Shown piece after piece: positions 6,355-48,450 of a DNA stretch of 64,000 nt; the first letter of the stretch is position 1, and the number at the start of each line of letters is the position of its first letter. The position numbers and the translations under genes are program-made. Origin of the DNA: Stegostoma tigrinum (lineage: Eukaryota); NCBI RefSeq assembly GCF_030684315.1, contig NC_081360.1:27635818-27699817 (forward strand), written 5' to 3'. Under the pieces are notes generated by a model that saw only the letters and a program-made list of their open reading frames with translations, was not told the origin of the DNA and did not search any database.

Positions 6355-9300
6355 TTAGAAGTCCCTCATGCGCCTGAAAGATCCGACAGCTGAGCTGTAG
6401 CCTCCCCAGTCGGTGTATCTCCTGTATTCACCGGGTCTCATGAAGTACTGCCGCCCCCTGTAGCTGGGATGTTCATAGAAGATCCAGTAACCGTCCATCA
6501 CGTGGCAGGAGTGGATGTCACGGTAACGGAAACGATCGTAGACAGATGGACAGTCATCTGTGAATTCCATCATCTGTCCTCCAAAGTCCGGCCTCTCGTA
6601 AATCCTCATTCTGTAGGAGCCTCCTCGGTACTGCAATAGAATATTTTAATTCATCTTCAATTTACAAGCATGAAAATGCACATCTAGGTATGTAAGCCAT
6701 TTTTTAAAAAAGATAGAAGTGTAGGCATTCAGATTTAACCCATCTACCACTCAAGAAAGATGGCACACAAAATGGATGTGCATTTTAACTCACGTTCAAT
6801 GATACACACCTAATCTCTCCGTATTCACAACACTATGACTGCATGTATTCAATACCGCATGATCATGGAACAGGATGCCCATGTGGATTATGAGATAGCA
6901 GGAACTGCAGATGCTGGAGACTCTGAGGTAACAAAGTGCGCAGCTGGATGAACACAGCAGTCCAAACAGCATCAGAGGAGCATGAATGCTGACATTTCGG
7001 GCTTAGACCATTCTTCAGAAATTGGGAAGGGAAGGGGATTCTGAAATAAATAGGAACAGATGGGTAGGCTGATAGAAGATGAATGAAGGAGAAGATAAGT
7101 GGAGAGGAGACAGACAGGTCAAAGAGGTGGGGGTGGAGCCAGTAAAAGTGAGTGTAGGTGGGGAGATATGGAGGGGCTAGGTCAATCCAGGGAAGATGGA
7201 CAAGTCAAAGAGCTGGAATGAGGTTAGTAGGTTGGAGCTGGGGGTGGGGATTGAGGTGGGCGGAGGGCGTAGGTGGGAGAAAGGACAGGTTGGGGAGGCG
7301 GGGACATGGTTGGCTGGTTTTGGAATGTGCTAGGGGGAGGGGAGATTTTGAAGCTTGTGATGTGCACATTGATACAGTTGGGCTGCAGGATTCCAAAGTG
7401 AAATATGAAGTGCTGTTCCTGCGACCTTCGGGTGGCATCGTTGTGGCAATGCAGGAGGCCCAGGATGGACATGCCGTCTGAGCAAAGGGTCGGTTACGTG
7501 GAACAATCTCTCTTCCATGGCTACACTGGCTATAAACACTACCTCTTCCTCCGTTACATCGATGGCTATATCGGCACCTCCTCGTGCTCCCACGAAGAGC
7601 TCGAACAGTTCATCCACTTCAACAACACTTTCCACCCCAACGTTAAGTTCATCCAGACCAACTCTGATACCTCTCTCTCCTTCCTGGAAATCTCTGATTC
7701 CATCTCTGGCAACCACCTGGAAACCGATGTCCATTTCAATCCTACCGACTCCCCCACACCGACCTAGAATACACCTCCCCCCACACACCTTCCTGCAAAA
7801 ATGCCTTCACCTATTCCCAATTCCTTCACATTGAAAGTATCTGCTCCCAGGATGAGGCATTCCACACCCATACATCTCAGATGTCCTTGTTTTTAAAGGA
7901 GTGCAACTTCAATGCCTCAGTGGTCGAAAACCCCCTCAACAATGTCGCCCGCAGCTCCTGTAAATCATTCCTCGCACACCTCCCCGCAATAACAACAAAA
8001 ACACAATCCCCCTGATGCTCACATAACACCACACCAACCTCTGGATCCAACACATCATGCTCCAACACTTCAGCCATCTGCAATCCGACCCCACCACCAA
8101 ACACAGTTTTCCCTCCCAACCCTTATCTGCTATCCGGAGGGATCACTCTCTCCATGACTCCCTTGTCCATTCTACTCTCCCCTCCAGCCCCACCACACCC
8201 AGCATCTTTCCCTGCAACCACAGGAAGTGCTAAATCTGCTCCTACACCTTCCCGCTCATCCCCATCCCAGGCCCCAAGAAGACCTTCCACATCAAGCAGA
8301 TGTTCACCTGCACATCTGCCAATGTGGGATACTGTATCCACTTTCCAGATGTGGCCTCGCTAAATCGGGGAAAATGTGCAGAGGCTTGGGGACCGCTTTG
8401 CAGAACACCTAAGCTCAGTTTGCACTAAACAACTGCACCACCCAGTTGCAAGCCATTTCAGCTCCGCCTCCCATTCTGCAGACAACATGTCCATCTCAGG
8501 CCCCCTGCAGTGCCACAACAATGCCACCTGAAGGTTGCAGGAACAGCAACTCATATTCCGCTTGGGAACCGTGCAGCCCAATGGTACCACTGTCGATTTC
8601 ACAAGCTTCAAAATCTCCCCTTGCCCCATTGCATCCCAAAACCAGCCCAGCTTGACTCCGCCTCCCTAACCTGTCCTTCCTCCCACCTATCCCTTCCTCC
8701 CACCTCAAACCCCACTCCCATCTCCTACCTACTAGCCTCATTTCAGTTCCTTGACCTGTCCATCCTCCGTGGACTGACCTATCCCCTCCTTACCTTCCCA
8801 CCTACACACCTTAATTGGTTCCACCCCCACCTCTTTGACCTGTCTGTCTCCTCTCCACCTATGCTCTCCTCTATCCATCTTCTATCCCCTACCCCTCTCT
8901 CCCGATTTATTTTAGAATGCCCCTCACCGCCTCCATTTCTGAAGAAGGGTCTTGGCCCGAAACGCCAGGAGAGCTGCTCTGCTATTTTTATTGTTGAGGC
9001 TTGTCACACAAATTAGTGACAGGAGTGAAATACAGGCCTGAGCTTTTGAGTTTTCAGTTCACCTGGCTGGAGGCAGAACCTTTACTCAGTTCTTACAGGA
9101 AAAGTTACACCACAGTGGGATTGTTTCAGAGATAGTCCGAACTGCAGATGCTGGAGAATCCGACATAACAAGGTGTACAGCTGGGTGAACACAGCAGGCC
9201 AAGTAGCATCATAGGAGCAGGAAAGCTGACCTTAAAGGCCGAGACCTTTCTACATAAAAAGATGGGTCTCCACCCGAAACATGGGCTTTGCTGCTCCTCT

Positions 9301-10447
9301 GTTGGTGTTTGTCCCGCGTGTTCATCCAGCTCTATGCCTTGTTACCACAATGGGATTGCCAGGCTTGAAGGGAGGGACCTCCAGTGCCATGAACTCCAGC
9401 TCCCAGGCTCTATCAAAGGCTGACAATGGCAGTTGAAGGTGTGACATCCACCGGGAAGAGTGTAATGACCTCTGGATGGGGGAATATGGGCCACACCGAT
9501 GAGATTCAAGGGAAAGATAACAGGAGAGCGCAAAACCCATTCAAAAAACATCACGCTCATACAGAGGACCATATCTCTGTAGCAGGTGAGACCTGAACTC
9601 AGGTGTGTTGACACTGTCATTGCACTACAATTTTAGGTTGAGCTGTTTCACTAGCAATCAAGGTAAATCTTAATCCACATTGATCATAAATAGAGATCCC
9701 GGTGACCTCTCATAAGGCAGCAGTCTCCATGGAATTATACCGCGTGTCGCGTAGTTACTTGTGGATTAAACCGAGGTGGAAGGAATAGCATTTTATACAA
9801 GAAATGATACGATGCCTCATCGTATGCCACATGCAGATTAGAATGTGGCTTTTGATAAAATGTGGGTGAATCATGAAGGCAAGAAAAAGGAACACAATCT
9901 GTCCACTATTTAAATCAAGAACTGTAATAATGTTGTTCACAGAAGAATGGAGATGATACCTATACATAGATGATGTATAGCAAATATTATAAGACGTATC
10001 AACAAATAATTTCCGTTTAAGCCTGCTATCAGACATTCATTTGTAACTTACTGGTTGATAGGAGCGACATGACCGGACACAGTCATTGAATCCCATCCAG
10101 TGCTGATAGTCAGGATATTCTCCCCTGGTCAGAACGTACTGGTATCCCATGTAATTAGATTTCTCATACAGAATCCACCAGTCACTCTCAACACGGATGG
10201 AGTTACAGCGGCTGAAGTAAGGGGTCAGGTCGGCACAGTCACTGCTGCACTCATAGTGCCGACCCTGGAAGTTCCTGTCCTCGTAAAAGATGATCTGTGG
10301 GAAGCAGGTAAGTTATAGATCAATGCTGTAACAAGATGAGGTAATTATGCAGTTTTAAAAAATATATATACTATACCATGTGTAAATGATCTCTTTCAGT
10401 GCTGTACTGATTCAACGAACTGAAAGCATGAAGCTTACCTTTCCCAT
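6355..10447 (-). CDS. cryg: Gamma-crystallin (gene 1), 175 aa; shark gamma-S1/gammaM-like type
   Basis: Exons 10447-10439 (MGK), 10294-10052 ([81 protein letters not shown]) and 6630-6355 ([18 protein letters not shown]...RRMRDF*). GT-AG phase-0 introns, four Greek-key motifs, AATAAA at 6287-6282. The symbol is family-level only. Confidence 0.95.
6892..8966 (+). mobile_element. Penelope-like retroelement in intron 2 of gene 1 (inverted 5' segment plus sense RT/GIY-YIG remnant)
   Basis: Plus-strand remnants [29 protein letters not shown] (RT) and [16 protein letters not shown] (GIY-YIG region). 6892-7480 is an inverted copy of the element's 3' end, the usual Penelope arrangement. Confidence 0.85.
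9124..9344. mobile_element. Short fold-back Penelope-terminus-derived insert
   Basis: Inverted arms taacaagg..gctgggtgaacac / gtgttcatccagc..ccttgtta, flanked by ccacagtgggattg (9110-9123) and ccacaatgggattg (9345-9358). Copies are present in units B and C. Confidence 0.75.
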
Positions 10448-15363: not shown

Positions 15364-18300
15364 TTAGAAGTCCCTCATGCGCCTGAAAGATCCGACAGCT
15401 GAGCTGTAGCCTCCCCAGTCAGTGTATCTCCTGTATTCACCGGGTCTCATGAAGTACTGCCGCCCTCTGTAGCTGGGATGTTCAAAGAAGATCCAGTAAC
15501 CGTCCATCACGTGGCAGGAGTGGATGTCACGGTAACGGAAACGATCGTAGACAGATGGACAGTCTTCCATGAATTCCATCATCTGTCCTCCAAAGTCAGG
15601 CCTCTCGTAAATCTTCATTCTGTAGGCGCCTCCTCGGTACTGGAATAAAGATTTTAATTCATTTTCAAGTTACAGGCATGAAAATGCGCATCTATAATGT
15701 AAGCCATTAAAAAAAAGCTACAAGTGTAGGCATTCAGATTTAACCCATCTACCACTCAAGAAAGATGGCACAAAAAAATGGATGTGCATTTCAACTCATG
15801 TTCAATGATATATATACACCTAATCTCTCCGTATTCACAACATTTTGTGACGACTGCACGTATTCAATACCGAATGATCATGGAACAGAAATGCCCATGT
15901 GGATTATGAGATAGCAGGAACTGCAGATGCTGGAGACTCTGAGATAACGAGGTGTAGAGCTGGGGAGGGGAGATTTTGAAGCTTGTGAAGTCCACGTTGA
16001 TACAATTGGGCTGCAGTGTTCCCAAGTGAAATATGAAGTGCTGTTTCTGCGACCTTCAGGTGGTATCGTTGTGGCACTGCAGGAGGCCCAGTGTGGACAT
16101 GTCGCCTGAGGAATGGCTAGGTTATGTGGAACAGTCTCTCTTCCACAGCTACACTGGCGCTAAACCCTACCTCCTCCTCCGTTACATCGATGGCTGTATC
16201 GGCGCCGCTTCGTACTCCCACGAAGCCCTCGAACAGTTCATCCACTTCACCAACACCTTCCACCCCAACCTTAAGTTCATCCAGACCAACTCTGATACCT
16301 CTCTCTCCTTCCTGGAAATCTCTGATTCCATCTCTGGCAACCACCTAGAAACCGATATCCATTTCAATCCTACCGACTCCCCCACACCTACCTAGAATAC
16401 ATCTCCCCCAACACACCTTCCTGCAAAAATGCCATCACCTATTCCCAATTCCTTTGCATCGAACACATCTGCTCACAGGATGAGGCATTCCACTCCCATA
16501 CATCTCAAATGTCCTCACTTTTCAAGGAGCACAACTCCCCCCCCCCCCCCCAGTGGTCGAGAATGCCCTCAACCGTGTCGCGCACATTTCCTGTATATCA
16601 TCCCTCACACCACTCCCTGCAATAACAACCAAAACAGAATCCACCTTGTCCTCACTTCCACCATCTGAAATCTGACCCTACCACCGAAGACATTTTTCCC
16701 TCCCCACCCTCATCTGCTATCCGGAGGTTCACCCTCTCCATGACTGCCTTGTCCATTCCACACTCCCCTCCAGCCCCACCACACCTAGCAATTTTCCCTG
16801 CAACCACAGGAAGTGCGAAATCTGCCCCTATACTTCCCCCCTCATCCCCATCCCAGGCCCCAGGAAGACCTTCCACATCAAGCAGATGTTCATCTGCACA
16901 TCTGCTCATGTGGTATACTGTATCCACTGTTCCAGATGGGTGCTCTCTACATCGGGGAAACCATGCAGAGGCCTGGGGACCGCTTTGCAGAACACCTACG
17001 CTCAGTTCACACTAAACAACCGCACCTCCCAGCTGCAAACCATTTCAACTCCCCCTCCAATTCCTCAGACAACATGTCCATCCTGGGCCTCTTGCAGTGC
17101 CAGATCAATGCCACCTGAAGGCTCCAGCACAACACCTCATACTTTGATTGGGAACCCTGCAGCTCAATGGTATCAATGTGGATTTCACAAGCTTCAATAT
17201 CTCACCTCCCCCTACAACATCCCAAAACCAGCCCAGCTTGTCCCCGCCTCCCTAACCTGTCCTTCCTCCCACCTATCCCTTCCTCCCACCTCAACCCCCA
17301 AACCCATGTCCTACCTAATTGTCTCATCCCGCTCCTTGATCTGTCCATCCTCCCTAGACTGACATCCCCTCCCTAACTCCCCACCTACACTCACCTTTAC
17401 TAGTTCCATTCCCATCTCTTTGACCTGTCTGTCTCCTCTCCACATATCTTCTCCTCTATCCATCTTCTATCCGCCTACCCCTCTCTCCATATTTACTTCA
17501 GATTCCCCCTCATCTACCCCGTTTCTGAAGAAGGGTCTAGGCCTAAAAACGTCAGGAGAGCTGCTCTGCTTTTTTTTATTTTTGAGTGTTGTCACACAAA
17601 TTAGTGACAGGAAGAAATACAGGCCTGAGCTGTTGAGTTTTCAGTTCACCTGGCTGGAGGCAGAACCTTTACTCAGTTCTTACAGGAAAAGTTACACCAC
17701 AGTGGGATTGTTTCAGAGATAGTCCGAACTGCAGATGCTGGAGAATCCGACATAACAAGGTGTACAGCTGGGTGAACACAGCAGGCCAAGTAGCATCATA
17801 GGAGCAGGAAAGCTGACCTTAAAGGCCGAGACCTTTCTACATAAAAAGATGGGTCTCCACCCGAAACATGGGCTTTGCTGCTCCTCTGTTGGTGTTTGGC
17901 CCGCGTGTTCATCCAGCTCTATGCCTTGTTACCACAATGGGATTGCCAGGCTTGAAGGGAGGGACCTCCAGTGCCATGAACTCCAGCTCCCAGGCTCAAT
18001 CAAAGGCTGACAATGGCAGTTGAAGGTGTGACATCCACCGGGAAGAGTGTAATGACCTCTGGATGGGGGAATATGGGCCACACCGATGAGATTCAAGGGA
18101 AAGATAACAGGAGAGCGCAAAACCCATTCAAAAAACATCACGCTCATACAGAGGACCATATCTCTGTAGCAGGTGAGACCTGAACTCAGGTGTGTTGACA
18201 CTGTCATTGCACTACAATTTTAGGTTGAGCTGTTTCACTAGCAATCAAGGTAAATCTTAATCCACATTGATCATAAATAGAGATCCCGGTGACCTCTCAT

Positions 18301-23958: not shown

Positions 23959-26900
23959 TTAGAAGTCCCTCATGCGCCTGAAAGATCCGACAGCTGAGCT
24001 GTAGCCTCCCCAGTCAGTGTATCTCCTGTATTCACCGGGTCTCATGAAGTACTGCCGCCCTCTGTAGCTGGGATGTTCAAAGAAGATCCAGTAACCGTCC
24101 ATCACGTGGCAGGAGTGGATGTCACGGTAACGGAAACGATCGTAGACAGATGGACAGTCATCTGTGAATTCCATCATCTGTCCTCCAAAGTCAGGCCTCT
24201 CGTAAATCTTCATTCTGTAGGCGCCTCCTCGGTACTGGAATAAAGATTTTAATTCATTTTCAAGTTACAGGAATGAAAATGCGCATCTATAATGTAAGCC
24301 ATTAAAAAAAAGCTACAAGTGTAGGCATTCAGATTTAACCCATCTACCACTCAAGAAAGATGGCACAAAAAAATGGATGTGCATTTCAACTCATGTTCAA
24401 TGATATATATACACCTAATCTCTCCGTATTCACAACATTTTGTGACGACTGCACGTATTCAATACCGAATGATCATGGAACAGAAATGCCCATGTGGATT
24501 ATGAGATAGCAGGAACTGCAGATGCTGGAGACTCTGAGATAACGAGGTGTAGAGCTGGGGAGGGGAGATTTTGAAGCTTGTGAAGTCCACGTTGATACAA
24601 TTGGGCTGCAGTGTTCCCAAGTGAAATATGAAGTGCTGTTTCTGCGACCTTCAGGTGGTATCGTTGTGGCACTGCAGGAGGCCCAGTGTGGACATGTCGC
24701 CTGAGGAATGGCTAGGTTATGTGGAACAGTCTCTCTTCCACAGCTACACTGGCGCTAAACCCTACCTCCTCCTCCGTTACATCGATGGCTGTATCGGCGC
24801 CGCTTCGTACTCCCACGAAGCCCTCGAACAGTTCATCCACTTCACCAACACCTTCCACCCCAACCTTAAGTTCATCCAGACCAACTCTGATACCTCTCTC
24901 TCCTTCCTGGAAATCTCTGATTCCATCTCTGGCAACCACCTAGAAACCGATATCCATTTCAATCCTACCGACTCCCCCACACCTACCTAGAATACATCTC
25001 CCCCAACACACCTTCCTGCAAAAATGCCATCACCTATTCCCAATTCCTTTGCATCGAACACATCTGCTCACAGGATGAGGCATTCCACTCCCATACATCT
25101 CAAATGTCCTCACTTTTCAAGGAGCACAACTCCCCCCCCCCCCCCAGTGGTCGAGAATGCCCTCAACCGTGTCGCGCACATTTCCTGTATATCATCCCTC
25201 ACACCACTCCCTGCAATAACAACCAAAACAGAATCCACCTTGTCCTCACTTCCACCATCTGAAATCTGACCCTACCACCGAAGACATTTTTCCCTCCCCA
25301 CCCTCATCTGCTATCCGGAGGTTCACCCTCTCCATGACTGCCTTGTCCATTCCACACTCCCCTCCAGCCCCACCACACCTAGCAATTTTCCCTGCAACCA
25401 CAGGAAGTGCGAAATCTGCCCCTATACTTCCCCCCTCATCCCCATCCCAGGCCCCAGGAAGACCTTCCACATCAAGCAGATGTTCATCTGCACATCTGCT
25501 CATGTGGTATACTGTATCCACTGTTCCAGATGGGTGCTCTCTACATCGGGGAAACCATGCAGAGGCCTGGGGACCGCTTTGCAGAACACCTACGCTCAGT
25601 TCACACTAAACAACCGCACCTCCCAGCTGCAAACCATTTCAACTCCCCCTCCAATTCCTCAGACAACATGTCCATCCTGGGCCTCTTGCAGTGCCAGATC
25701 AATGCCACCTGAAGGCTCCAGCACAACACCTCATACTTTGATTGGGAACCCTGCAGCTCAATGGTATCAATGTGGATTTCACAAGCTTCAATATCTCACC
25801 TCCCCCTACAACATCCCAAAACCAGCCCAGCTTGTCCCCGCCTCCCTAACCTGTCCTTCCTCCCACCTATCCCTTCCTCCCACCTCAACCCCCAAACCCA
25901 TGTCCTACCTAATTGTCTCATCCCGCTCCTTGATCTGTCCATCCTCCCTAGACTGACATCCCCTCCCTAACTCCCCACCTACACTCACCTTTACTAGTTC
26001 CATTCCCATCTCTTTGACCTGTCTGTCTCCTCTCCACATATCTTCTCCTCTATCCATCTTCTATCCGCCTACCCCTCTCTCCATATTTACTTCAGATTCC
26101 CCCTCATCTACCCCGTTTCTGAAGAAGGGTCTAGGCCTAAAAACGTCAGGAGAGCTGCTCTGCTTTTTTTTATTTTTGAGTGTTGTCACACAAATTAGTG
26201 ATTGGACGAAATACAGGCCTGAGCTGTTGAGTTTTCAGTTCACCTGGCTGGAGGCAGAACCTTTACTCAGTTCTTACAGGAAAAGTTACACCACAGTGGG
26301 ATTGTTTCAGAGATAGTCCGAACTGCAGATGCTGGAGAATCCGACGTAACAAGGTGTACAGCTGGGTGAACACAGCAGGCCAAGTAGCATCATAGGAGCA
26401 GGAAAGCTGACCTTAAAGGCCGAGACCTTTCTACATAAAAAGATCGGTCTCCACCCGAAACATGGGCTTTGCTGCTCCTCTGTTGGTGCTTGGCCCGCGT
26501 GTTCATCCAGCTCTATGCCTTGTTACCACAATGGGATTGCCAGGCTTGAAGGGAGGGACCTCCAGTGCCATGAACTCCAGCTCCCAGGCTCAATCAAAGG
26601 CAGACAATGGCAGTTGAAGGTGTGACATCCACCGGGAAGAGTGTAATGACCTCTGGATGGCGGAATATGGGCCACACCGATGAGATTCAAGGGAAAGATA
26701 ACAGGAGAGCGCAAAACCCATTCAAAAAACATCACGCTCATACAGAGGACCATATCTCTGTAGCAGGTGAGACCTGAACTCAGGTGTGTTGACACTGTCA
26801 TTGCACTACAATTTTAGGTTGAGCTGTTTCACTAGCAATCAAGGTAAATCTTAATCCACATTGATCATAAATAGAGATCCCGGTGACCTCTCATAAGGCA

Positions 26901-27768: not shown

Positions 27769-29878
27769 ACTGTTCTCCCATAATATGCAAAAACCATTCC
27801 AGAATGCGTGCTTTTAAAATCATGTGAACGCCTCTTTTCATTTTGCTTTTACCTCATTTTAATTGCTCGGTTAACAAATTATTCCAGAAAAGAGGCATTG
27901 CCGACGCCTCTCGGAGCTGATGGTATCACACGCAATGAAAATGCAGTATGTTCTCTTCTGAATGTGACGAGAAGTCTGTGCTCTTAAAATTGCGTTTCAG
28001 TAATTTTTGTATAAGACTCCTTATTTTTTTTTGCCCCCAGTGTGATTTGCGTAAGCCTGACTGAATGAACATGGAAATTGTATCGTTTTGGTCTTATCGC
28101 AAGCATACCTACTTGTGTCAGTGTGCTGTATACAATGGGGGTTCAAAAACAGACAACTGGATCCAAAGTATACTTTAGAACTGTTGTTTCTGCCCCAGAC
28201 CCTTCATCATTCCTCACCACAGGCCTGAAACATGGACTTCCCTGCTCCTCTGGTGCTGCCTGACTTGAATGTCTCAATGCTTTCCCGCTGCTATATGCAG
28301 GTTTGTTTTTTTTTGTCCTTATCATTGTCAATCTCAACAATTTAGAGATGCGGAATAAGATTTATTTTGGTCTTGTTGACATCCAATATGATGAGCGTCA
28401 GAGGTTACATCCACACTGAGAATTGAAGGATGAACACAACTGCCTGACAGCACATTGGGAGCACCCACACCACATAGGTGGCAACGGATCAAGAATCTGA
28501 CCTATTACCTACTTGTCAAATGCATTAGGGATGGGCAACAGAATTGTTGTAGCCTACGTTGCCCACATCATGTGATTAAATAAATATGAAAGTGTAAAAA
28601 AGTTAAGAAAGGAGAAAATTAAAAAGAAGAAATAACTTGCTACCAGACGCAGAAACCAAGGCTTACCAAAAGCACTCACATGCTTCCAGCAGTGAGGTCA
28701 GCAAAAGAGGTAGCGTTTTCCAAGAACTGAATGGCAATATTCAAATTACATTCATCTTCCAAAACTGCGCGGGGCAGAGGTGAGCTCTTGAGCAGACTCT
28801 GTTCACACCACCAATATAGTTGTGAATTGTTCAAAACCATATGATTGCATCCAAATTATATTGTAGTGATGTTTTTGCTTCCCTAGACCCTTCATCATTC
28901 CTCACCATGACCAGGCCTGAAACATGGGCTTCCCTGCTCCTCTGATGCTGCCTGACCTGTTGTGTTCCTCCAGCCCCACACTGACTCCAGCATCTGCAGT
29001 TCTTGCCATCTCCTAAAAATGAAGTAGAATACCTTGACACAGTTAAGGTATGAATCAAAACCCATGGACTACATGTGGCAAGAAAGGGAGAGCAGTGTTA
29101 TGCAGATATTGAAAGGCTATACCAACATGAATGGTAGTTCAGTCAGATGTACTGGGAACACAGATTAGTATCAGGCTTCACATCAGCAAACAGTTAGATG
29201 GAGAGGTGACTCTGCTATTCACCTACCTATTATTAACTCAAGGTGACTTTCATTGGGACTGGTCCCTTGGGGCACGAAAGAGATTTAGCACACTGTTGTC
29301 TAAAAATCACTTCTCTACCTCTGTATCTCTCCTCGAAGGTTCCACACTCGTCCTAACCTCTGTCTTGCCAGAGGTAGAGATTTTTGGAACTCTGACGTTC
29401 TTCTGGGGTTCTTGGTGTCAAATGTAAACCCAATTATGCTCTCGGCCAAATGTGGAATGTCCAGAGTTGGCCTGAACAGTTCCTGTTCTTCAAGAATTTC
29501 CCTGAGGAGGGCAGACAGAAGCAGGTTACATTCACCTTTCACTGAAAGGATAGGAGCCTGAAAGTCCTGGTAAATCATATAGAGAAGCAGCCATATCCCA
29601 CACGACTAGCAGAGCAGACAATGCCAACAGACCAAGCCAGTCTGGTCCAAAGTTCCCATCAGTTTTATTCAGATATCGATAGTTCAGAGGAATGTCCGAC
29701 ATTGCAGCAAGAAGGTCAATTACCTACTCCACTTTGCAAGGACATGTGCTGATACATCACACTCACTCTAACTCTGGTACTGTGCACACCTCCCACCAAC
29801 ACTCGTGGTCTATCCATCAAAACATATCTTTCCTCACTTACTGTCACCCACACAAAACCTGACAACATGAACTCTGCA

Positions 29879-29980
29879 AGATAACAAAGTGTGGAGCTGG
29901 ATGAACACAGCAGGCCAAGCAGCATCTCAGGAGCACAAAAGTTGACGTTTCGGGCCTAGACCCTTCATCAGAGAGCTCTG
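29879..29980 (-). mobile_element. 102-bp Penelope-terminus mini-insert with hammerhead-like core and 13-bp target duplication
   Basis: catgaactctgca at 29866-29878 and 29981-29993. Single-copy empty site in the paralog at 47711-47723. Confidence 0.85.
29944..29971 (-). ncRNA. Candidate minimal hammerhead ribozyme core (Penelope-associated)
   Basis: Minus strand CUGAUGA-A-GGGU-CUAG-GCCC-GAAA-C-GUC: both conserved boxes, 4-bp helix II, palindromic ACGU helix III and a GUC triplet. Helix I is not obvious and activity is untested. Confidence 0.55.
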
Positions 29981-30904
29981 CATGAACTCTGCATGCATGT
30001 TTTGCCAGCAGAACATTCTCATCATTGCAATACATTATTTCTCATGGATCCCCATGATCCAGCCCAAAGTGATGGTGGAGACACCAGCTCATCGGAGGAG
30101 TGAGTCTGAGGAGTAAATGACTTTGTCTGGACAGGACCAGTGTGCAGCCCAGACATGACGCACATGGAAAGCTGATGTGGTTGGGATCTTATGGCCTTGG
30201 CTGGCCCAGTAGAAGATGGTGTTGCATTGCAGAAACACAGGACAGTACAATATGGTGTTCTGGCAGCCAAGTCCAGACAGAGAGTTGCAGCAGTGTCCCT
30301 CTCTCATCTGCTTGGCATTCCGTGGAGGATATGTGACTGTGACCATGCTGTATCTTCACTGAAGCATGACAGCACCTACTGTGATGGGATACCACCATAT
30401 CCACTGCAGGCTGATGCTACTCATGCCCTTGTGGTCACTTGTCTTCCTCATTCATTTGTTCAACAGCTCTTGTTGCAGCAGACACAAGGATGACCACAGC
30501 TTCAGTGTTGTGCCCAAGGAGATGGTTCCCATGAGCCAATGTGGGCTATATCGTAAAGAATTAAGCTCCTTATACATATGACCATTTGGCAGTGGCAGTG
30601 ACATCAAATATTATTTGAACAGAATTGACCTAAGATTGGGACATGGAGTCCCCCAGCAAGCATACAAGCCGGCTGCCTCGACATGGACCTTTTGTTGCTC
30701 TGATCTAGCTGTCTGTTCCTAAATTCCTTCCAGATATCACAGGGAACATTTATCGTCTAGACTGAGAGGCTGAGTTGATGACTCTCTTTATGAAGGACAA
30801 CTGCATTTTTCCTTCTATTCCCAACCAGAAGAAGCTTTCTTCCTTTGTGTCAGTGCTAAATGGCAAGACAATGTAGAGGGCATAAATTTTGCATAAAGGT
30901 GGGC

Positions 30905-32149: not shown

Positions 32150-33275
32150 ATAGTATACTATGAAATTCTGCCTTTTGTATTTGCCTTCAGAGAAGAGGAT
32201 GCAACAATTCTCCCTGAGATTAAATCCGAGGGTATAGTTTAGAGTGTGGAATGGAAAAAAAATTAATGTTAGTAAAAAAAAGGAGTGTTGGAGAAATTAA
32301 TGGGACTGAAAGTTGACAAAACCCCAGGACTCCATGACCTTTATCCTGAAATGCTAAAAGAGATGGCAACATAGGTAGTGCATGGTGATCATAAATCGTC
32401 AATACTGCCTGCAGAACAGATCATTGAAACTGTAATAATCCCATTGTTACAGAACAGAAGGAGAGAGATACAGGGAGCTACAGGTCTATTCACCTAATAT
32501 TACTAGCAGGGATACTACTAGGATGCTGCAAAAAGGATGTGATCGCTAGATATTTTGAAAAAAAAATCTCCGATTGGACAGGGAAGATGGATTCATGAGT
32601 GGGAAATAATAATATTAATATACCTGAATGAGGATTTTGCAAAATGTTGCTATAAAATCAATTGGGAACAACTGGAACTGGTGTATTTGCATTTTCACAA
32701 GGTTTTTGATAAGATTCCATTCAGGACAATAACAAATAACATGGTAGGGCATAGTATTGGAGGTAACTGACCTACATAGTTTAAAGAATGGTTAACAGAC
32801 ACAAAGGAAAGTGTAGAGATACATCATTTATTCTGAATTTGGCAGGCTGTGACAAATGGGATATCGCAAGGACCAGTGTTTAGGACCAGAGATAGCAGAA
32901 AAGCTCTCCTGCACCTCTGATGCTGCCTGGCCTGCTGTGTTCGTCCAGCTCTACACTTTGTTATGTAGTGCTTAGGACCCAGTGTTCAAAATCTACGTCA
33001 ATGCTTTGCTTGCTGCCATCAACTATGATGTTTCCATTTTTGGAGATGGTGCACAATTTGGTGGGACTGTGAGCCATGAGGACGTTGCAAAGAGGCTTCA
33101 GAGTAAAATAAACTCGGTGACTGGACGTGACTTCACATATGGATGATAACATGGCTAAGTGTGAGATTATCCACTTTGCTAGGAGGAACAAAAGTACAGA
33201 GTATTTCTTAAAAAGTAAGACAGATTGGAAACTGTTGAAGTACATAGGAACTTTGGTGTCCTTGTTCATTAGTAT
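32150..33275 (+). mobile_element. CR1-type LINE remnant, opposite orientation
   Basis: ORF 32555..32770 LELVYLHFHKVFDKIPF (consensus VYLDFQKAFDKVP) and KCEIIHFARRN. Contains a short insert at 32888-32966 with a 13-bp target duplication. Confidence 0.75.
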
Positions 33276-37435: not shown

Positions 37436-38364
37436 CAATTGCAAAACTCACAAATTTTGAGGAAGTTTAAAGATAAAATAGGGTCATATCTTGGAGCTGG
37501 AGGAGGACAGCAGATCATGCAGCATTAGAAGGGCAGGAGAGTCAATGTTCCTGTACTTGACTCTTCATCCTGATGAAGGGACCAGGCCTGAAACGTCAAC
37601 TCTCCTGCTCCTCTGATGCTGTCTGACCTGCTGTGTTCCTCCATCTCTACACTTTATTGACTCTGACTCCAGCATTTGCAGTTCTTGCTCTCTCCTAAAG
37701 ATGAAGTAGAATACTTTCCCCACAAATAAGTATCAATCAATACCCATAGAATATATACAATTGGCAAGAAAGGAAGAGGTATGTTATGCAGATACTGAAA
37801 GGTCATACCAACATGAATGGTCGTCACATCGCATGTACTTGGAACCACAGATTAGTATTTGGCTTCACACCAGCAAACAATTAAATAGAAGGTAGACTGT
37901 GTATCCACCTACCTGTTATTCATGCAGGTGACTGAATTTTACCGAAAAATTGGCAATGTGCCAACATGCGATGTGACAACCATTCATGTTGGTATGACCT
38001 TTCAGTATCTGCATAACATACCTCTTCCTTTCTTGCCAATTGTATATATTCTATGGGTATTGATTGATACTTATTTGTGGGGAAAGTATTCTACTTCATC
38101 TTTAGGAGAGAGCAAGAACTGCAGATGCTGGAGTCAGAGTCAATAAAGTGTAGAGATGGAGGAACACAGCAGGTCAGACAGCATCAGAGGAGCAGGAGAG
38201 TTGATGTTTCAGGCCTGGTCCCTTCATCAGGATGAAGGGTCAAGTACAGGAACATTGACTCTCCTGCCCTTCTAATGCTGCATGATCTGCTGTCCTCCTC
38301 CAGCTCCAAGATATGATCCTATTTTATCTTTAAACTTCCTCAAAATTTGTGAGTTTTGCAATTG
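37436..38364. repeat. Long inverted repeat: 401-bp arms, 127-bp spacer
   Basis: 37436-37836 is the reverse complement of 37964-38364 (about 5 mismatches by eye). ORFs 37654..37848(-) and 37922..38146(+) give nearly the same peptide. Confidence 0.95.
37570..37597 (+). ncRNA. Candidate hammerhead-like core
   Basis: CTGATGAAGGGACCAGGCCTGAAACGTC. Mirrored at 38230-38203, with a related copy at 47205-47232. Confidence 0.4.
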
Positions 38365-39349: not shown

Positions 39350-40690
39350 CGGGCATAGAGTTAGCACTGTACAGCACACGAAAGGGCTCTTCAGCGCATG
39401 ATATTATGCTGAACATGACACTAAATCAAACTGAACCCTTATCCCTGACCTTAATTAATATCCATGCATTTCTTGCATTTTCATGTGCTTATTTACAACT
39501 CTCCTTAACGGCTCTATTGTATCTGCCTCCACCACCACCCCTTCTGGCAGAGTTTCTCCATCTCCTTCTACTCTGTGTCCTAAAAAGCTTATCCCTCATA
39601 TCTCCTTTGAACTTCCCCCATCTCACCCTAAAGGAATGTTCCCTAGCTTCAGACATTTCACCTCTGGGATAAAGATTCGGACAGTCAACCTATCTATGCA
39701 TCTCATAATTTTACAGATTTCTATCAATTCTCCCCTCAGCCTCAGCCTCTCCAGATAAAACAACCCAAGCTTTTCTAGCTAACAAGGTGTAGATCTGGAT
39801 GAACACAGCAGGCCAAGCAGCATCTTAGGAGCAGGAAAGCTGACATTTCAAGCCTAGACCCTGAAGGGTTTCCTGCCCCTAAGATGCTGCTTGCCTGCTG
39901 CGTTCATCCAGCTCTATACCTTGTTGTCTCGGATTCTCCAGCATCTGCAGTTCCTATTATTTCTGATCCAAGTTTTTCTAGCCTCTCCTTATAACTCATA
40001 TCTTCTAATCCAGGCAGCATCCTGGTAAAACTTTTCTGCACCATCTCCAAAACCTCCACATTCTTCCTGTAATGCGGTGACCAGAATTGAACTCAAAACC
40101 CTAAGTGTGTCCTAACTGAAATCTTATAAAACATGACATTTTGATGGTTGTAATCAATTTGTCAGCCAATGCTTTATCATCTTTACCATCCTATCTACTT
40201 GCTGGCCACTTTCAGGGAGCTATGAACCTGAACCCTAATATCCCTCTGTAGATCAATCCTGTTCATATTCCCATCATTAACTGTATGATTTTCCTTAACT
40301 TTTGATCTCCCAAAGTGCAGCACCTCACGCTTACCTGGATTAAACTCCACCTGCCATTTCTTCACCCATATCTGCAACTGATCTATGTCCCAGTGTATTC
40401 TTTGGTTACCTCTAAACCATCCGCAACTGCAGTGATCTTTGTAACATCTGCAAAGATACTAACCCCCCGCCCCCACATCTACTTTGCTGCTAAGTCATTT
40501 ATATATATCGTAAGCAGCAGAGGTCACACTAGTCACAGACTTCAAGCCAGAAAAACATCCTTTCACAATGACCCTCTGCCTTGTTTGCACAAGCCAATTC
40601 TGAACCCACATAGCCAAGCCCAGTGGATCCCACACATCTTAATCTTCTGAGCCCACAAGAGGGACCTTGTCGAAAACCTTACTAAAATAT
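39350..40690 (-). mobile_element. CR1-type LINE fragment
   Basis: Minus ORF QIWVKKWQVEFNPGKREVLHFGRSK..QRDIRVQVHSSLKVA. Paralogous to 30905-32135 and 48610-49850 (same right-hand junction). Confidence 0.85.
39780..39967. mobile_element. Fold-back Penelope-terminus insert with 15-bp target duplication
   Basis: Inverted arms aacaaggtgtaga.ctggatgaac.cagcagg / cctgctgcgttcatccagctctataccttgtt. Flanks ccaagcttttctagc (39765-39779) and ccaagtttttctagc (39968-39982). Confidence 0.85.
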
Positions 40691-40699
40691 ATGGAGAGG

Positions 40700-41725
40700 T
40701 CCAAACTTCACTATGAAAACCTGCCTTTTGTGCTTGCCTTCACAGAGGATGACACAATAAATCTCCTTGAGATAAAGATCCAACAGTCTAGTGAGAGTGA
40801 GGAATGGAAAGAAATTAATGTTAGTAAAAAAGGAGTGTTGGAGAAATAGATGGGACTGAAAGTTGACAAATCCTGAGGTCTCCATGAACTTTGTCCTGAA
40901 ATGCTAAAAGAGACAGTGACAGAGGTAGTGCATACACTGGTGATCATCAATCATCAACACTGCCTGCAGAAAAGATCATTGAAACTGTAATCCCATTGTT
41001 TTGGAACAGAAGGAGAGAAAAACAGGGAATTATAGGCCTATTCATCTGACGTCACTAGGAGGGATGCAACTAGAATCCTTCAGAAGGGATGTGATTACTA
41101 ATAATTTTGAAAATAAAGTCTGACTGGACAGTCAACATAAATTCATGAGTGGGAAATCATGAATTATACATACTTGATTGAGTTTTTTAAAAATGTTGTA
41201 ATAAAATCAATAAGGGACCCAGTGGATCTGGCGTTTTTGTATTTTCAGAAGCCTATTAATAAGGTTCAGGAGGTTCATAAATAAAATTGAAGGCAATGGT
41301 AGTCAAGGTAACATGTCTACATAGGTTGAGGAATGGTTAACAGAGAGAATAGAAAGGCTGTGGATGATTGGGCTTCTCTGAATTGGTAGGCTGTGACCAA
41401 TGGAGTACTGCAGGGATCAGTGCTTCAGGCCTGGCTGTTCAAAATCTATTCCAGTGATTTTCTTGTTGCCACCAATATAATGTTTCCATTGTTGCAGATG
41501 ATGCACAATTTGGTGGGAGTGTGAACCGTGAGGAGGTGGCAAAGAGGCTTCAAAGTAAAATAGACTGAGTGATAGGACGTGGCTTCACATATTGATGATA
41601 ATGTGGCTAAGTGTGAGATTATTCACTTTGCTAGGAGGAACAAAGGTACTGAGTATTTATTAAAAGGTGAGACAGATTGGAAAGTATTAATGTTACAAAG
41701 GGACTTTGGTGTACTTGTTCAATAG
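40700..41725 (+). mobile_element. CR1-type LINE remnant (paralog of 32150-33275)
   Basis: Contains VTNGVLQGSVL and VADDAQFGG (decayed PQGSVL and FADD motifs). Confidence 0.75.
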
Positions 41726-43224: not shown

Positions 43225-46200
43225 TTAAAAATCCCTGATTCGCCTGAATGATCCAATAGTTGAACAGGTCGCTCCCCAGTCAGTGTATCTCCTGTATTCA
43301 CCGGGTCTCATGAAGTACTGCTGCCCTCTGTAGTTGGGATGTTCGTAGAAGATCCAGTAACCATCCATCACATGGCAGGAGTGGATGTCATGGTAACAGA
43401 AACGATCGTAGACAGATGGACAGTCGTCCATGAATTCCATCATCTGTCCTCCAAAGTCAGGCCTCTCGTAAATCCTCATTCTGTAGGACCCTCCTCGGTA
43501 CTGCAATACAGAGAGAAGGAACTAACACAGCAGGTCAAGAAGCTGTTTGCATATGCAACCCAGCAAGACCCATTCCTACAAACGGCCTTCAGATCTCGCA
43601 ATTTTTTTTACACTTTGACATGTTGAAACAATTTCTCTATAAAGTCAACAATTGTATCAGTATCGATCAGGTTTTCTAAATCTAAAAAAGGAGTTAAAGA
43701 TTGATAAATTTTGGGGTTGCATTATTACACTGCGCTAAATTGAGGAGTGAAGGGAGGTTAAGTTTAAATATTGGTAGCAAACATGGGTGTCTTGATTATT
43801 CAGCATTCACGGGTTCCCGGGGCGAAAGTTCATAGGTGCTTTGTCCACATTGGGAGACAATGGTGGGAACATGTCTCTTTTGATGGTCGATCGACAGCTA
43901 ATTTCCAAAAACACAGGCAGATACTGTAAAAACTACAGTTTTACAAGTATTATAACTGAAATGCCCATATAGTTTTACACTAGAAGAGAATTTTGGACCT
44001 AATGTGTAGTTAATTAGCATTTCTGCTTGGCCTCAAGACCAATGGGATTGCACTGCCATGGGATTTGAGAAGGGAAACGAATAGGATTCCATTGTGAAAA
44101 GTCAGGTTGTTAGCTTTCAAAAGATATCCCCAGTACTCAGAGAGATGTCAGTCTGCCAATATGTCATAAAGGGAGAAAGACAGAGAGAGAGAGAGAAGCA
44201 AAATTCAGCTAGTCTCCATGGTTCATCACATAAGAATCTGAATTGAACAAAAACAAAGTCGCTGGAATAGCTCAGCAGGTCTGGCAGCATCCGTGGAGGA
44301 GAAAACAGAGCTAGCGTTTCCTCAAACCTGAATTCCTGATTTATAGCATCCACAGTTCTTTTGGTTCTTATTTAGAATGTGCATGGAACCTCAGTCTCAA
44401 ATAGAAAATATGAAATTGTTGAGGTTTGAGAGTGAGGCTGGACGATTCACAGAGACTGTGTGAGAAGCCAAAGCTCCAGCCGAAACATCAACCAAGATAA
44501 TAAAGTGTGAAGCTGGATGAACACAGCAGGCCAAGCAGCATCTCAGGAGCACAAAAGCTGATGTTTTGGGCCTAGACCCTTCATCAGAAAAGGGGGATGC
44601 GGAGAGGATTCTGAAATAAATAGGGAGAGAGGGGGAGGCGTACTAGAGATAGATAGAGGAGAAGATAGGTGCAGAGGAGAGAGATAATGGGAACTGCAGA
44701 TGCTGGAGAATCCAAGATAATAAAGTGTGAAGCTGGATGAACACAGCAGGCCAAGCAGCATTTCAGGAGCACAAAAGCTGACGTTTCGGGCCTGAGAGTA
44801 TGGATGGGGCGGTAGGGAGCGGATAGGTCAGTCCGGGGAGGATGGACAGGTCAAGTGGGCGGGATGTGGTTGGTAGGTAGGAAATGGAGGTGTGGCTTGA
44901 GGTGGGAGGAGGGGATAGGTGAGACGAAGAACAGGTTATGGAGGTGGGGACGAGCTGGGCTGGTTTTGGGATGCAGTGGGGGAAGGGGAGATTTTGAAGC
45001 TTGTGAAGTCCACATTGATACCATTAGGCTGCAGGGTTCCCAAGCAGAATATGAGTTGCTGTTCCTGCAACCTTCGGGTGGCATCATTGTGGCACTGCAG
45101 GAGGCCCATGATGGACATGTCGTCTGAGGAAAGGGAGGGGGGAGAGTTTTGGGGTTAAATCGTTTCACAGACACCAATCACTTTTTCTTTTGAAAAAAAT
45201 TGAAAAAACATTCAGTGATCAACTGAAAAGATGACATCACATTCACATTAAGATTCTCACGGTGACATGCAAACCATGAGAAGCAAAATAGACGAAATAT
45301 TACTTCTTGGGCAACTTATACTTTAAATTAAAGAAGAGAACTTTCCCCAGTTAGTTTTTGATCACAACCGCTCGCCTTTCGCTGCGGTTCTACATTCCCT
45401 GTATCTTCTGTGCACATAGTATTCTCCGTGAGCCAGTCCGAAGTGGCTCTCCACCACAGGTAGCATTTTAATCCCCAAATCCCTCTGGAATTGACCCTTC
45501 AGGCATTTGAAATAGTTTGTCTTTATTTACTTTGTACAGCCTTCATAACTTTAAAGAGCTGCATCATATCCCATTCACTCCTTCCGGCACTAGAGACGAA
45601 TCCCTGAGCTTTATCAGTTTACCCATGTAACTGTAATCCGTCAGCCGTGGGACCTCACGAGTGAATCTCTCCCCTACCTTTCAAAGCTTTTACATATTCC
45701 TATCTGTGTAGTGCAGAGCTGGATGATATCAGTTGGGATTGAATTGGTGTTTACAAAAATTAGCGTAAATTTTGCATCCAAATATTATTAGCAGAGTGGA
45801 ACCTATATTGCAAAGAAGAATAAAATTTCCATCAGAAATACACAATTAGATCAACTCACGCGAGGGTAGGAGCGACATGACATGATGTAGTCATTGAATC
45901 CCATCCAGTGCTGATAGTCAGGATATTCTCCCCGGGTCAGAACATACTGGTATCCCATGTAATTGGATTTCTCATAACAGCACCCACCAGTCACTCTCAA
46001 CACGGATGGAGTTACAGCGGCTGAAGTAACGGGACAGGTCGGCACTGTCACTGCTGCACTCATAGTGCCGACCCTGGAAGTTCCGGTCTTCGTAAAAAGT
46101 GATCTGTCGGAAACAGTTATGTTATAGATTAATACTTTAACAAGATGAGGTACTTCTGCATTGTATGGAAAGTTAGTGTAAGTGATCTCTTTCAATGCTG

Positions 46201-46243: not shown

Positions 46244-47359
46244 TTTAGGTTCACAGTTGGAAAGCTGCTCACTGAATGTTCCTCTGTTTCCGGGTATTTA
46301 CACAGTTGTCTGAAAGTTCAATGTAAAGGATACACCATTATTCTGATGATTCACGACCACATATATCAGCAGAAAAAATACAATAATGCAAAAAAAAGTT
46401 CTCCCATAATGTGCAAAAACTACTCCAATATACGCGCTTTAAAAATCATGTGATTGCATTTTTTTCATTTTGCTTTTTCCTCGTTTTAACTGTACGGTTA
46501 ACAAATTATTCGAGAAAAGAAGCATTACTGACTCTTCTCAGAGCTAATAGTATCACAATCAATTAAAATGCAGAATGTTCTCTTCTGAATGTGAAAATTG
46601 AGTTTCAGGTTTTTGTGTTTTTTCCCCCTGTGTGATTTGCGTAAACATCACTGAATGGACATGGAAATTGGTCATATAACAAGCGTATCACCCTATATCA
46701 GTGTGTTGTCTATAATGGCGGTTTAGTCTTCTGTTAGTCCTCTCAATGCTTTCCCGCTGCTGTGTGCAGGGTTGTTTTAATCTCATCGTCATCATTCTCA
46801 ATCTGAAATATTTAGAGATGTGGAACAGGATTTATTTTGGTGTTATTTTCGTCCAATTTGATGAGGGTCAGAGGTTGCATTCATACTATGAATTGAAGGA
46901 TGGGAACATTCAACTTTCTCATTGGGAGTACCTACACCACATTGGACGATAATGGTTCAAGAATCTGGCTCACTACCATCTTTTCAAACACATTGGGCGT
47001 GGGTAAGAAATATTGTTGTGGCCTGTGATACCCACATCATGTGAAAAAGTAAATATTAAAGTGAAATAAAGTTAAGAAAAGGGAAAATTACAAAAAAAAT
47101 CTTACTACCAGTCCTTGAAGCCAAGGAGTGCCAAAAGCAGTTATATTCTTCCATGAGTGAGACTGGAGAAAGAGGTAATTATTCAAAGAACCCAATGGGC
47201 TGTCCTGATGAAGGGACCAGGCCCGAAATGTCGACTTTCCTGTTCGCCTAGTGCTACCTGACCTGCTGAGTTCTTCCCACACCACACTGTATTGACTCTG
47301 ACTCCAGCATCTGCTATTTTTGCTATCTTCTAAAGATGAAATAGAATGCCTTACCCACA

Positions 47360-48450
47360 AGGGCAGACAGAAGCAGGTTGGCTTCACCTTTCACTGACAG
47401 TAGCCTGAAAGTCCTGGTAAATGAAATAGTGAAGCAAGTTGTTCCTATGCAACCAGCAGAGCAGACAATGCCAACAGACCTTCCAGCCTGGTCCAAAGTT
47501 CCCATCAGTTTCACTGAAGTGTTGATAGTTCAGAAGAATGCCCAGAATTGCAGCAAGAAGTTCAATTACCTACTCCACTTTGCAAGGACATGTGCCAATA
47601 CCTCACACTCACTCTAGCTCTGGTACTGCGCACATCTCTTACCAACACTCATGGTCTGTCTATCAAACCATGTCTTTCATCATTGCTGTCACCCACCCAA
47701 ACCCTGACAACATTACCTCTGCATGCATTGTTTTCTCTGCAGAACATCCTCATCATTGCGATACAGCATTTCTCATGGATTCCCATAATCCAGCCCAAAG
47801 TGATGGTGGAGATGCCAGTTCCTCAGCAGAATAAGTCTGAAGAACAAGTGACATCCTCTGTCTGGACAGGCTCAGTGTGCAGCCCAGGCATTACTCACAT
47901 GGAAAGCTGATATGGACGGGCCATCCCATTGCCTTGCCTGGCCCAGTGGAAGATGGTGTTGCATTGAAAAAAACAGGACAGTACAATATCGTGTTCTGAC
48001 AGCCACCTCCAGACAGTGAGTCGCAGCAGTGTCCCTCTCTCATCTGCATGGCATTTCATGGAAGATATGTGACTGTCTCTCCCCTGTATCTTCACTGCAT
48101 CATGACAGCACCCACGGCAGGAAGCTTCGCAGTATGGGATGCCACCAAATCCACTGCAGGCTGCCCTTGCGGTCACTTGTCTTCCTCACTCATTTGTTCA
48201 ACAGCTCTTGGTCCAGCAGACACACAAATGAGCACCAGTCAGTGTTGGGACGCAGGGGATGGTTCCAATGAGCGCAGGTGGGAAATTTTAGGAACAAAGC
48301 AGCTCTTTAGACATGGCCATTGCAGCCACTCTCAAATTTCATTTGAACAGCTTTGACCTAACATTGTGACATGGAGACCCCCAGCAAGCAGGCCAGTCAG
48401 CTGCCTCGACATGGACCTTCCCAGTGTTGCCCTGATTCAGCTGTCTGTTA
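47360..48450 (+). mobile_element. PIF/Harbinger-like remnant, Myb/SANT-like ORF
   Basis: ORF 47378..47617 SPFTDSSLKVLVNEI..PAWSKV..KNAQNCSKKFNYLLHFAR. Confidence 0.65.

What the first reader, a model, noticed from the sequence alone, without database searches (positions are those of the whole stretch)
29866..29993. Family of tiny mobile inserts built around a hammerhead-ribozyme-like core, with 13-15-bp target duplications
Seen: a 102-bp insert (29879-29980) flanked by a perfect 13-bp duplication, with the empty site visible in the paralog at 47711-47723. Its minus strand contains CUGAUGA-A-GGGU-CUAG-GCCC-GAAA-C-GUC. The same motif, intact or decayed, occurs at 7018-6991(-), 8939-8966, 17525-17553, 26119-26147, 37570-37597, 38230-38203(-), 44587-44560(-) and 47205-47232. 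It sits at the termini of the larger Penelope copies. Other short relatives have 13-15-bp duplications (9124-9344, 32888-32966, 39780-39967). Known: Penelope-like elements carry minimal hammerheads with palindromic helix III thought to work as dimers. Inference: the ribozyme-bearing terminus is being mobilised on its own, as a retrozyme/SINE-like non-autonomous family in sharks.
Basis: partly seen in the sequence, partly recalled or inferred. Interest (0 to 1): 0.7.

Follow-up and report, generated by a model that had tools for sequence, protein, structure and literature searches.

The report
Tiny leader stubs of Penelope retrotransposon
This 102-base insert is one of hundreds of thousands of short stubs matching the hammerhead-bearing front end of an abundant Penelope-like jumping gene with many intact copies; the stubs are likely made afresh at each insertion rather than copying themselves, and their shared stopping points likely mark where that gene's RNA begins and, less surely, where its ribozyme cuts.

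Summary
The insert, its perfect 13-bp duplication, the paralogous empty site and the minimal hammerhead motif are real. A self-spreading SINE/retrozyme family is not supported. The insert is positions -4 to +92 (0 = C of CUGAUGA) of the leader of an intact 3.6-kb Penelope-like element (about 1,050-1,190 aa, RT plus GIY-YIG; Neptune-type linker). About 700,000 such termini exist (extrapolated). Most short copies are head-to-head pairs with one tailed and one tail-less arm; solos are about a fifth. Short and long copies share haplotypes, and junctions differ from copy to copy. Yet the stubs are not random truncations: 89 of 102 young arms stop at -6..0, 30 nt behind a TATA-like box, often with an extra G. 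A smaller excess stops at the predicted cut site (+28: 3,008, against 467 and 161 at +30 and +26; other palindromic junctions 95 and 71). Best reading: the element's enzyme starts internally near the RNA's 5' end and runs off it. Cleavage in cells is inferred, not shown; no usable RNA data. This scan reported the same elements several times before on other DNA of this genome.

The parts
29866..29878 (.). left copy of 13-bp target-site duplication
29981..29993 (.). right copy of 13-bp target-site duplication (identical)
29879..29975 (-). tail-less arm, positions -4 to +92 of the Penelope-like leader/terminus; 95% identical to the reference intact copy, 97-100% to 40 genomic copies
29944..29971 (-). 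minimal type I hammerhead core (CUGAUGA box, 4-bp helix II, GAAA box, palindromic helix III); predicted cut between 29944 and 29943
   Evidence: cut site inferred from the hammerhead consensus
29976..29980 (-). 5-nt junction filler ending in G at -5; either a snap-back copy of the arm's own start or a re-copy of target bases (both fit)
   Evidence: (target context)
47711..47723 (.). empty site in the paralogous unit (2 mismatches to the duplication)
6892..8968 (.). older long head-to-head insertion of the same element (motifs 7018- and 8939+); paralogous copies 15908-17555 and 24503-26149; plus arm breaks off at +29
9124..9343 (.). short head-to-head pair, arms from +5, 15-bp duplication with 1 mismatch; copies near 17713 and 26307
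32888..32966 (+). coreless stub: short inverted tail fragment plus an arm starting at +28 (32902), 13-bp duplication with 1 mismatch, empty site near 41425-41436
37570..37684 (+). old solo arm from 0 to +116; inverted copy 38116-38230; same ancestral insertion as 11726, 20313, 28913 and 47205
39780..39967 (.). short head-to-head pair, arms from +7 and about +36, 15-bp duplication with 1 mismatch
44492..45141 (-). complex partial-tandem copy (motif 44587-)

Best explanation
The insert is a 97-base copy of the hammerhead-bearing leader of an intact Penelope-like retrotransposon, likely made directly from that element's RNA at each insertion and not by a separate mobile family. Shown: the same 130-nt module lies 166 nt before the ATG and again at the 3' end of intact elements; genomic arms end at two 3' positions (about +92 and +127); 5' ends pile up at -6..0; duplications are mostly 13-16 bp. 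Inferred, by analogy with the Anolis PAc enzyme: the protein cuts both target strands about 15 bp apart and starts reverse transcription at internal sites (+92, +127). When it uses the copy of the module at the front of the RNA it runs off the RNA's 5' end after about 100-130 nt, often copying the cap as an extra G. Priming from both strands gives the head-to-head pairs; priming from one gives solos like this one. A small share of template RNAs was likely already cut by the hammerhead, giving arms that start at +28. Stubs lack the upstream TATA-like box and the sequence behind the start sites and are likely dead ends.
For: Intact elements: 20 of 20 fetched have ORFs of 1,048-1,188 aa, 16 with the core at -166/-167 from ATG, all with it at the 3' end; RVT_1 and GIY-YIG matches below Pfam's cut-offs. 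5' ends: 89 of 102 core-anchored young arms at -6..0; in 952 kb of unselected DNA 22 ends in 7 nt (-6..0) against 11 in 93 nt (-99..-7), p=3.5e-18. TATA-like word starts at -34. G before the end in 37 of 60 arms ending at -5/-4/-2 (p=5e-6 against 0.33), where the genome has C or T; extra G from the cap is described for L1 (PMC11702581, passage). 53 of 58 inverted insertions pair a tailed with a tail-less arm; TSD found in 52 of 58. The two arms share a haplotype class in 32 of 43 pairs, chance 0.39. Haplotypes shared by short and long arms. Internal starts and tail in PAc (PMC11167929, parts 1-2 of 4 read).
Against: No RNA evidence for a start at -4. The G excess is weak in solos alone (8 of 15, p=0.08), and in pairs some Gs can come from the partner arm. 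Only 10 of 20 solos had a TSD found by script. The insert's haplotype leans towards short arms (17 of 62 short, 6 of 47 long, p=0.10); two minor variants were seen only in short arms (6 of 218 and 5 of 228). D. virilis Penelope has an internal promoter (PMC2377424, passages), so solos could be transcribed. The leader is short in variation, so a short master identical to the long one would not be seen.
Confidence: 0.72

Rival explanations
1. The stubs are a self-propagating non-autonomous family (SINE/retrozyme-like): unit-length RNAs from solo copies are re-mobilised in trans.
For: Fixed ends and unit lengths of about 97 and 132 nt; short arms are 72 of 127 young arms; slight excess of the insert's haplotype among short arms; internal promoter in D. 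virilis Penelope; pLTR sequence suffices for trans mobilisation in Adineta (PMC3846280, passages).
Against: No private haplotype among those seen at 3 or more loci; junctions vary and the same apex occurs with the tail on either arm; no Pol III boxes; 5 genomic matches to the insert's junction word, the 4 others unrelated beyond it; tailed ends need template behind +127, which stubs lack (PAc needs about 55 nt past its start site; inference).
Confidence: 0.12
2. The stubs are early-terminated copies of the 3' terminal module; reverse transcription stalls at the hammerhead hairpin or at the C-run just upstream, so the pile-ups reflect structure, not RNA ends.
For: The leader and 3' terminus are the same sequence, so origin cannot be read from one stub; the predicted fold closes a hairpin from 0 to +29; 5' truncation is the usual account (PMC4209133, parts 1-2 of 4 read; PMC8557442, passages).
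Against: Stops lie just beyond the far side of the hairpin and fall to a low, flat rate upstream; the extra G is not templated; the TATA-like box is at the expected distance.
Confidence: 0.11
3. This solo copy arose from a head-to-head pair that later lost one arm by hairpin deletion.
For: Its junction equals the common apex of the pairs; the end of the duplication resembles the inverted arm over 5 nt.
Against: The 13-bp duplication is whole and perfect; the 5 filler bases also match the target next to the site; solos split evenly into tailed and tail-less, 10 and 10.
Confidence: 0.05

Closest known systems
Minimal hammerheads of metazoan Penelope-like elements (Cervera and De la Pena 2014, PMC4209133; parts 1-2 of 4 read)
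   Same: Type I core with one unpaired base before helix II, G10.1-C11.1 pair, palindromic helix III without loop; thousands of single motifs and pairs 100-700 bp apart on opposite strands, ascribed to truncated elements.
   Different: Here helix II is 4 bp and helix I only 2 bp; the paper's text that I read names no shark and reports no fixed 5' ends.
Poseidon PAc of Anolis (Frangieh et al. 2024, PMC11167929; parts 1-2 of 4 read)
   Same: Ribozyme at the front of the unit; two internal reverse-transcription starts that define the tail; both strands cut and extended.
   Different: Here the ORF starts 166 nt behind the core and the protein has a Neptune-type linker; PAc authors found no RNA-seq reads ending at the cut site, whereas this genome shows an excess of arm ends there.
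EN+ Penelope insertions with inverted pLTR, tail and TSD (Arkhipova et al. 2013, PMC3846280; Craig et al. 2021, PMC8557442; passages seen)
   Same: Head-to-head inverted 5' arm, 30-40-bp optional tail on one end, palindromes at the junction, solo pLTRs, TSDs.
   Different: TSDs here are mostly 13-16 bp (8-10 in Adineta); ORF-less stubs are the commonest product and number in the hundreds of thousands.
Non-LTR retrozymes (Cervera and De la Pena 2020, PMC7229834, passages; Li et al. 2026, 10.64898/2026.07.22.740005, parts 1-3 of 5 read)
   Same: Non-coding, type I hammerhead, derived from PLE pLTRs, present in a cartilaginous fish.
   Different: Defined as tandem repeats with a ribozyme in each unit; the insert is a single 97-nt arm. 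A true tandem example was seen elsewhere (L097).

Membership tests
EN+ Penelope-like element (parent) | single ORF with RT and C-terminal GIY-YIG endonuclease with CCHH | tested here: met
   1,089-aa ORF; RVT_1 E=5e-5 and GIY-YIG E=0.004, both under Pfam cut-offs; CxxC before YIG and two later His read in the translation
EN+ Penelope-like element (parent) | pLTRs, partial tandems, inverted 5' arm, 30-40-bp optional tail | tested here: met
Neptune clade | CX2-5CxxC linker between RT and EN | tested here: met
   CX4CxxC in the translation; definition from PMC8557442; shared with Nematis
Neptune clade | placement in an RT tree | not tested
   no reference RT set was fetched
PLE minimal type I hammerhead | CUGANGA and GAAA boxes, UH triplet, palindromic helix III | tested here: met
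PLE minimal type I hammerhead | core conserved above helix II, loop II and N7; helix II kept paired | tested here: met
   in 39 divergent arms core 0.90 (0.93 without the CpG base) against helix II 0.83, loop II 0.76, N7 0.72; helix II pairs kept in 34-36 of 39. Not above the downstream leader (0.90)
PLE minimal type I hammerhead | helix I of 4-5 bp; match to an Rfam hammerhead model | tested here: not met
   only 2 bp pair, as in D. virilis; no Rfam hammerhead match; the insert itself has A at +29, breaking the second pair
PLE minimal type I hammerhead | self-cleavage (dimer or protein-assisted) | not testable with these tools
   indirect only: excess of arm ends at +28
Non-LTR retrozyme | tandem units each with a hammerhead | tested here: not met
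   insert is single; 28 of 29 closest relatives are inverted pairs; one regular tandem array in 952 kb
Non-LTR retrozyme | circular or unit-length RNA | not testable with these tools
   no RNA run of this organism listed
SINE | Pol III internal promoter or tRNA-derived head | tested here: not met
   no A or B box in the insert, no tRNA in the window
SINE | own source genes with diagnostic variants, separate from the partner element | tested here: not met
   8 of 8 recurrent haplotypes shared with long arms; power limited by a short, little-varied sequence

The most novel reading that the evidence does not exclude
The stubs are a genomic record of the element's RNA 5' ends: a capped start 2-5 nt before the hammerhead and a second end exactly at the hammerhead cut. 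If so, a minimal Penelope hammerhead with a 2-bp helix I cleaves in the germ line and the cut RNA is still reverse-transcribed, which would answer whether these ribozymes work in vivo.
Probability: 0.5. Interest if true: 0.65.

Novelty: new member of a known kind. Interest (0 to 1): 0.42.

Why it matters
As a new SINE it does not hold. Its value is mechanistic: whether the weak minimal hammerheads of Penelope-like elements cut in cells is open (PMC4209133, PMC11167929), and so is how these elements make inverted ends and tails. A genome with many intact copies and hundreds of thousands of stubs gives mapped ends (RNA start near -4, cut at +28, RT starts at +92 and +127) that can be tested directly with 5' mapping and the existing in vitro assay. 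Three searches of the held library found no paper reporting such fixed 5' ends; Repbase and Dfam could not be searched.

Tried and rejected
Rfam: no hammerhead match; the miRNA matches at 39795-39911 are below gathering scores and reflect the palindrome. Pfam on partial ORFs: nothing. Folding: the insert folds no better than shuffles (z=+0.83); one of the five folded stretches (L240) was given on the wrong strand and is ignored; the active fold is not the minimum-energy one, an extended hairpin 0..+29 competes. Sequencing runs: no RNA holder listed; contigs of four runs of a related organism cannot show starts or ends. Unselected sample alone has too few arms to test +28 (4 of 127). The strong frequency differences at +76/+82/+86 were set aside because the long set includes copies I chose for intact ORFs; in unselected arms the test gave p=0.15. 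Earlier findings near the window: none. PMC5785218 (dimer cleavage paper) is not held and was seen only as a citation. No supplements were read; those of PMC4209133 and of the Li preprint may list shark motifs.

Full report
Coordinates: 0 is the C of CUGAUGA, read on the element's sense strand. An arm is one copy of the terminal module.

1. Observation. The window is a tandem cluster of 8.6-kb units with beta/gamma-crystallin exons (Pfam Crystall E=1e-30; exon map); the insert lies between two genes (inferred from the exon map). The 102-bp insert has identical 13-mers on both sides. One paralogous unit aligns across the site without it, with 2 mismatches in the 13-mer. The flanks are 78-84% identical to the paralog while the insert is 97-100% identical to 40 scored genomic copies, so the insertion is recent. 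The eight other motif sites exist but trace to about three insertions; three of them have no long copy attached; the three other short inserts have 13-15-bp duplications with one mismatch but no whole core. Rfam has no matching hammerhead.

2. Parent element. A search with an N-terminal peptide listed many frames over 1,000 codons. All 20 fetched have ORFs of 1,048-1,188 aa; 16 have the core 166-167 nt before the ATG and all have it again at the 3' end. The protein has weak RVT_1 and GIY-YIG matches and a CX4CxxC linker, which points to Neptune or Nematis. So the module is both the leader and the 3' terminus, as in PAc. 1,431 exact matches read through the tail by a few more bases, and most of the 12 inspected continue towards the ORF. 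The insert is -4 to +92 of this module plus 5 filler bases.

3. Abundance and forms. 159 arms in 690 kb of evenly spaced DNA (69 stretches; 11 requested stretches lay beyond contig ends) extrapolate to about 740,000; one 26-mer has 178,113 exact matches. Of the 29 closest relatives fetched, 28 are head-to-head pairs. For a sample not chosen by form I took the places with an exact 30-nt core in the first 10.5 Mb of C1 (99 of the 100 listed places fetched): 102 arms. 58 insertions are short-partner inverted pairs, 20 are solos starting at -6..0 (sorted by eye), the rest are long, complex or slightly longer solos. TSDs were found in 52 of 58 pairs, 40 of them 13-16 bp; control 2 of 102; 10 of 20 solos had one by script. 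53 of 58 pairs join a tailed arm (about +127) to a tail-less arm (about +92); solos are 10 and 10.

4. 5' ends are not random. 89 of 102 core-anchored arms stop at -6..0. In 952 kb of unselected DNA, 127 young arms gave 22 ends at -6..0, 20 at +1..+12, 30 at +13..+60, 11 at -99..-7 and 44 further up (step p=3.5e-18; a few ends at -1 may be misplaced by subfamily differences). A TATA-like word starts at -34. The base before ends at -5/-4/-2 is G in 37 of 60, but only 8 of 15 in solos. For L1 such a G reflects the cap. I infer an RNA start at about -4.

5. The cut site. Arms ending at a position, followed by three non-matching bases: +28 3,008, +30 467, +26 161. Of the first 100 listed at +28, 64 are a palindromic junction over AGCT, 10 a second microhomology junction, 2 a third (counted by eye), so about 720 remain, roughly twice the +30 level. 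The AGCT junction (about 1,900) could also be two blunt ends at +30, the foot of a predicted hairpin. But like 4-nt palindromic junctions at +23..+26 and +55..+58 number only 95 and 71 (the second uses another anchor), so microhomology alone does not explain it. The window's 32888 stub starts at +28. The excess is about 1.5% of arms. Cleavage is the simplest cause; a stall in the hairpin is not excluded. PAc authors saw cleavage only with protein and no RNA ends at the site.

6. Ribozyme conservation. Among 76 young arms the core decays like its surroundings (0.95 against 0.94), with CpG loss. Among 39 divergent arms the core (0.90) is better kept than helix II, loop II and N7 (0.83, 0.76, 0.72) and helix II stays paired, but the downstream leader is as conserved (0.90). 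Selection acts on source elements, not on stubs (inference). Helix I is 2 bp, and the insert's +29 change breaks one of them.

7. Self-propagation. All 8 haplotypes seen at 3 or more loci occur in short and long arms (423 arms aligned, 228 short, 180 long, 15 in between left out). The insert's haplotype also occurs in long and read-through copies, with a non-significant lean to short arms. Arms of one pair share a class in 32 of 43 (chance 0.39). The commonest apex occurs with the tail on either arm. The insert's junction word has 5 matches; the other 4 continue differently. No Pol III boxes. A real non-autonomous candidate exists elsewhere: L097 holds 301-bp tandem units (-69 to about +232) with TATA-like box and core, inside a 15-bp TSD; its junction was found in 1 of 261 loci.

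8. Mechanism and verdict. Best: internal priming at +92/+127 on the front module, run-off at the RNA start, one or both strands primed (0.72). Rivals: separate family (0.12), structural stall on the 3' module (0.11), hairpin deletion for this copy (0.05). The architecture is in print; fixed 5' ends were not found. Earlier notes of this scan describe the same pairs, RNA start and cut site; they gave me the leads and one paper (PMC3846280), and I tested them as above. Ordinary as a family, useful as a footprint: interest 0.42.

Noticed in passing
L097:4969-6196 (G000:C22, near 10,005,000): Internally deleted mini-element: three tandem 301-bp-spaced units plus an inverted arm, each with TATA-like box, core and the same private base at +28, inside a perfect 15-bp TSD. 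Fits the non-LTR retrozyme definition better than the finding itself; junction seen in 1 of 261 loci.
   Followed up: partly
L242:2835-3001 (leader of intact elements): Two short upstream ORFs: one starts at the ATG inside the core, the next starts one base after its stop and ends at the tail with a TGA in frame with the main ORF.
   Followed up: no
window 8939-8968, 17525-17555, 26119-26149: The plus arm of the old long insertion breaks off at +29, two bases behind the predicted cut; one event, triplicated.
   Followed up: no
window 37436-38364: 401-bp arms, 99% complementary, around 127 bp; a recent local inversion-duplication of host DNA that includes an old solo arm.
   Followed up: no
window 5182-29486: Three crystallin units 93-97% identical (8.6-kb period), far younger than the other units (74-89%).
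   Followed up: no
L130-L141: Several copies join the leader, read 200-400 nt towards the ORF, directly to a short 3' arm, each at a different junction: likely template jumps that can give minis like L097.
   Followed up: partly
L007:1411-1602 and similar pairs: In pairs with the common apex, the arm starting at -2 gains up to 7 bases complementary to +28..+34, a longer helix I than the parent has, though the full hairpin would compete.
   Followed up: no
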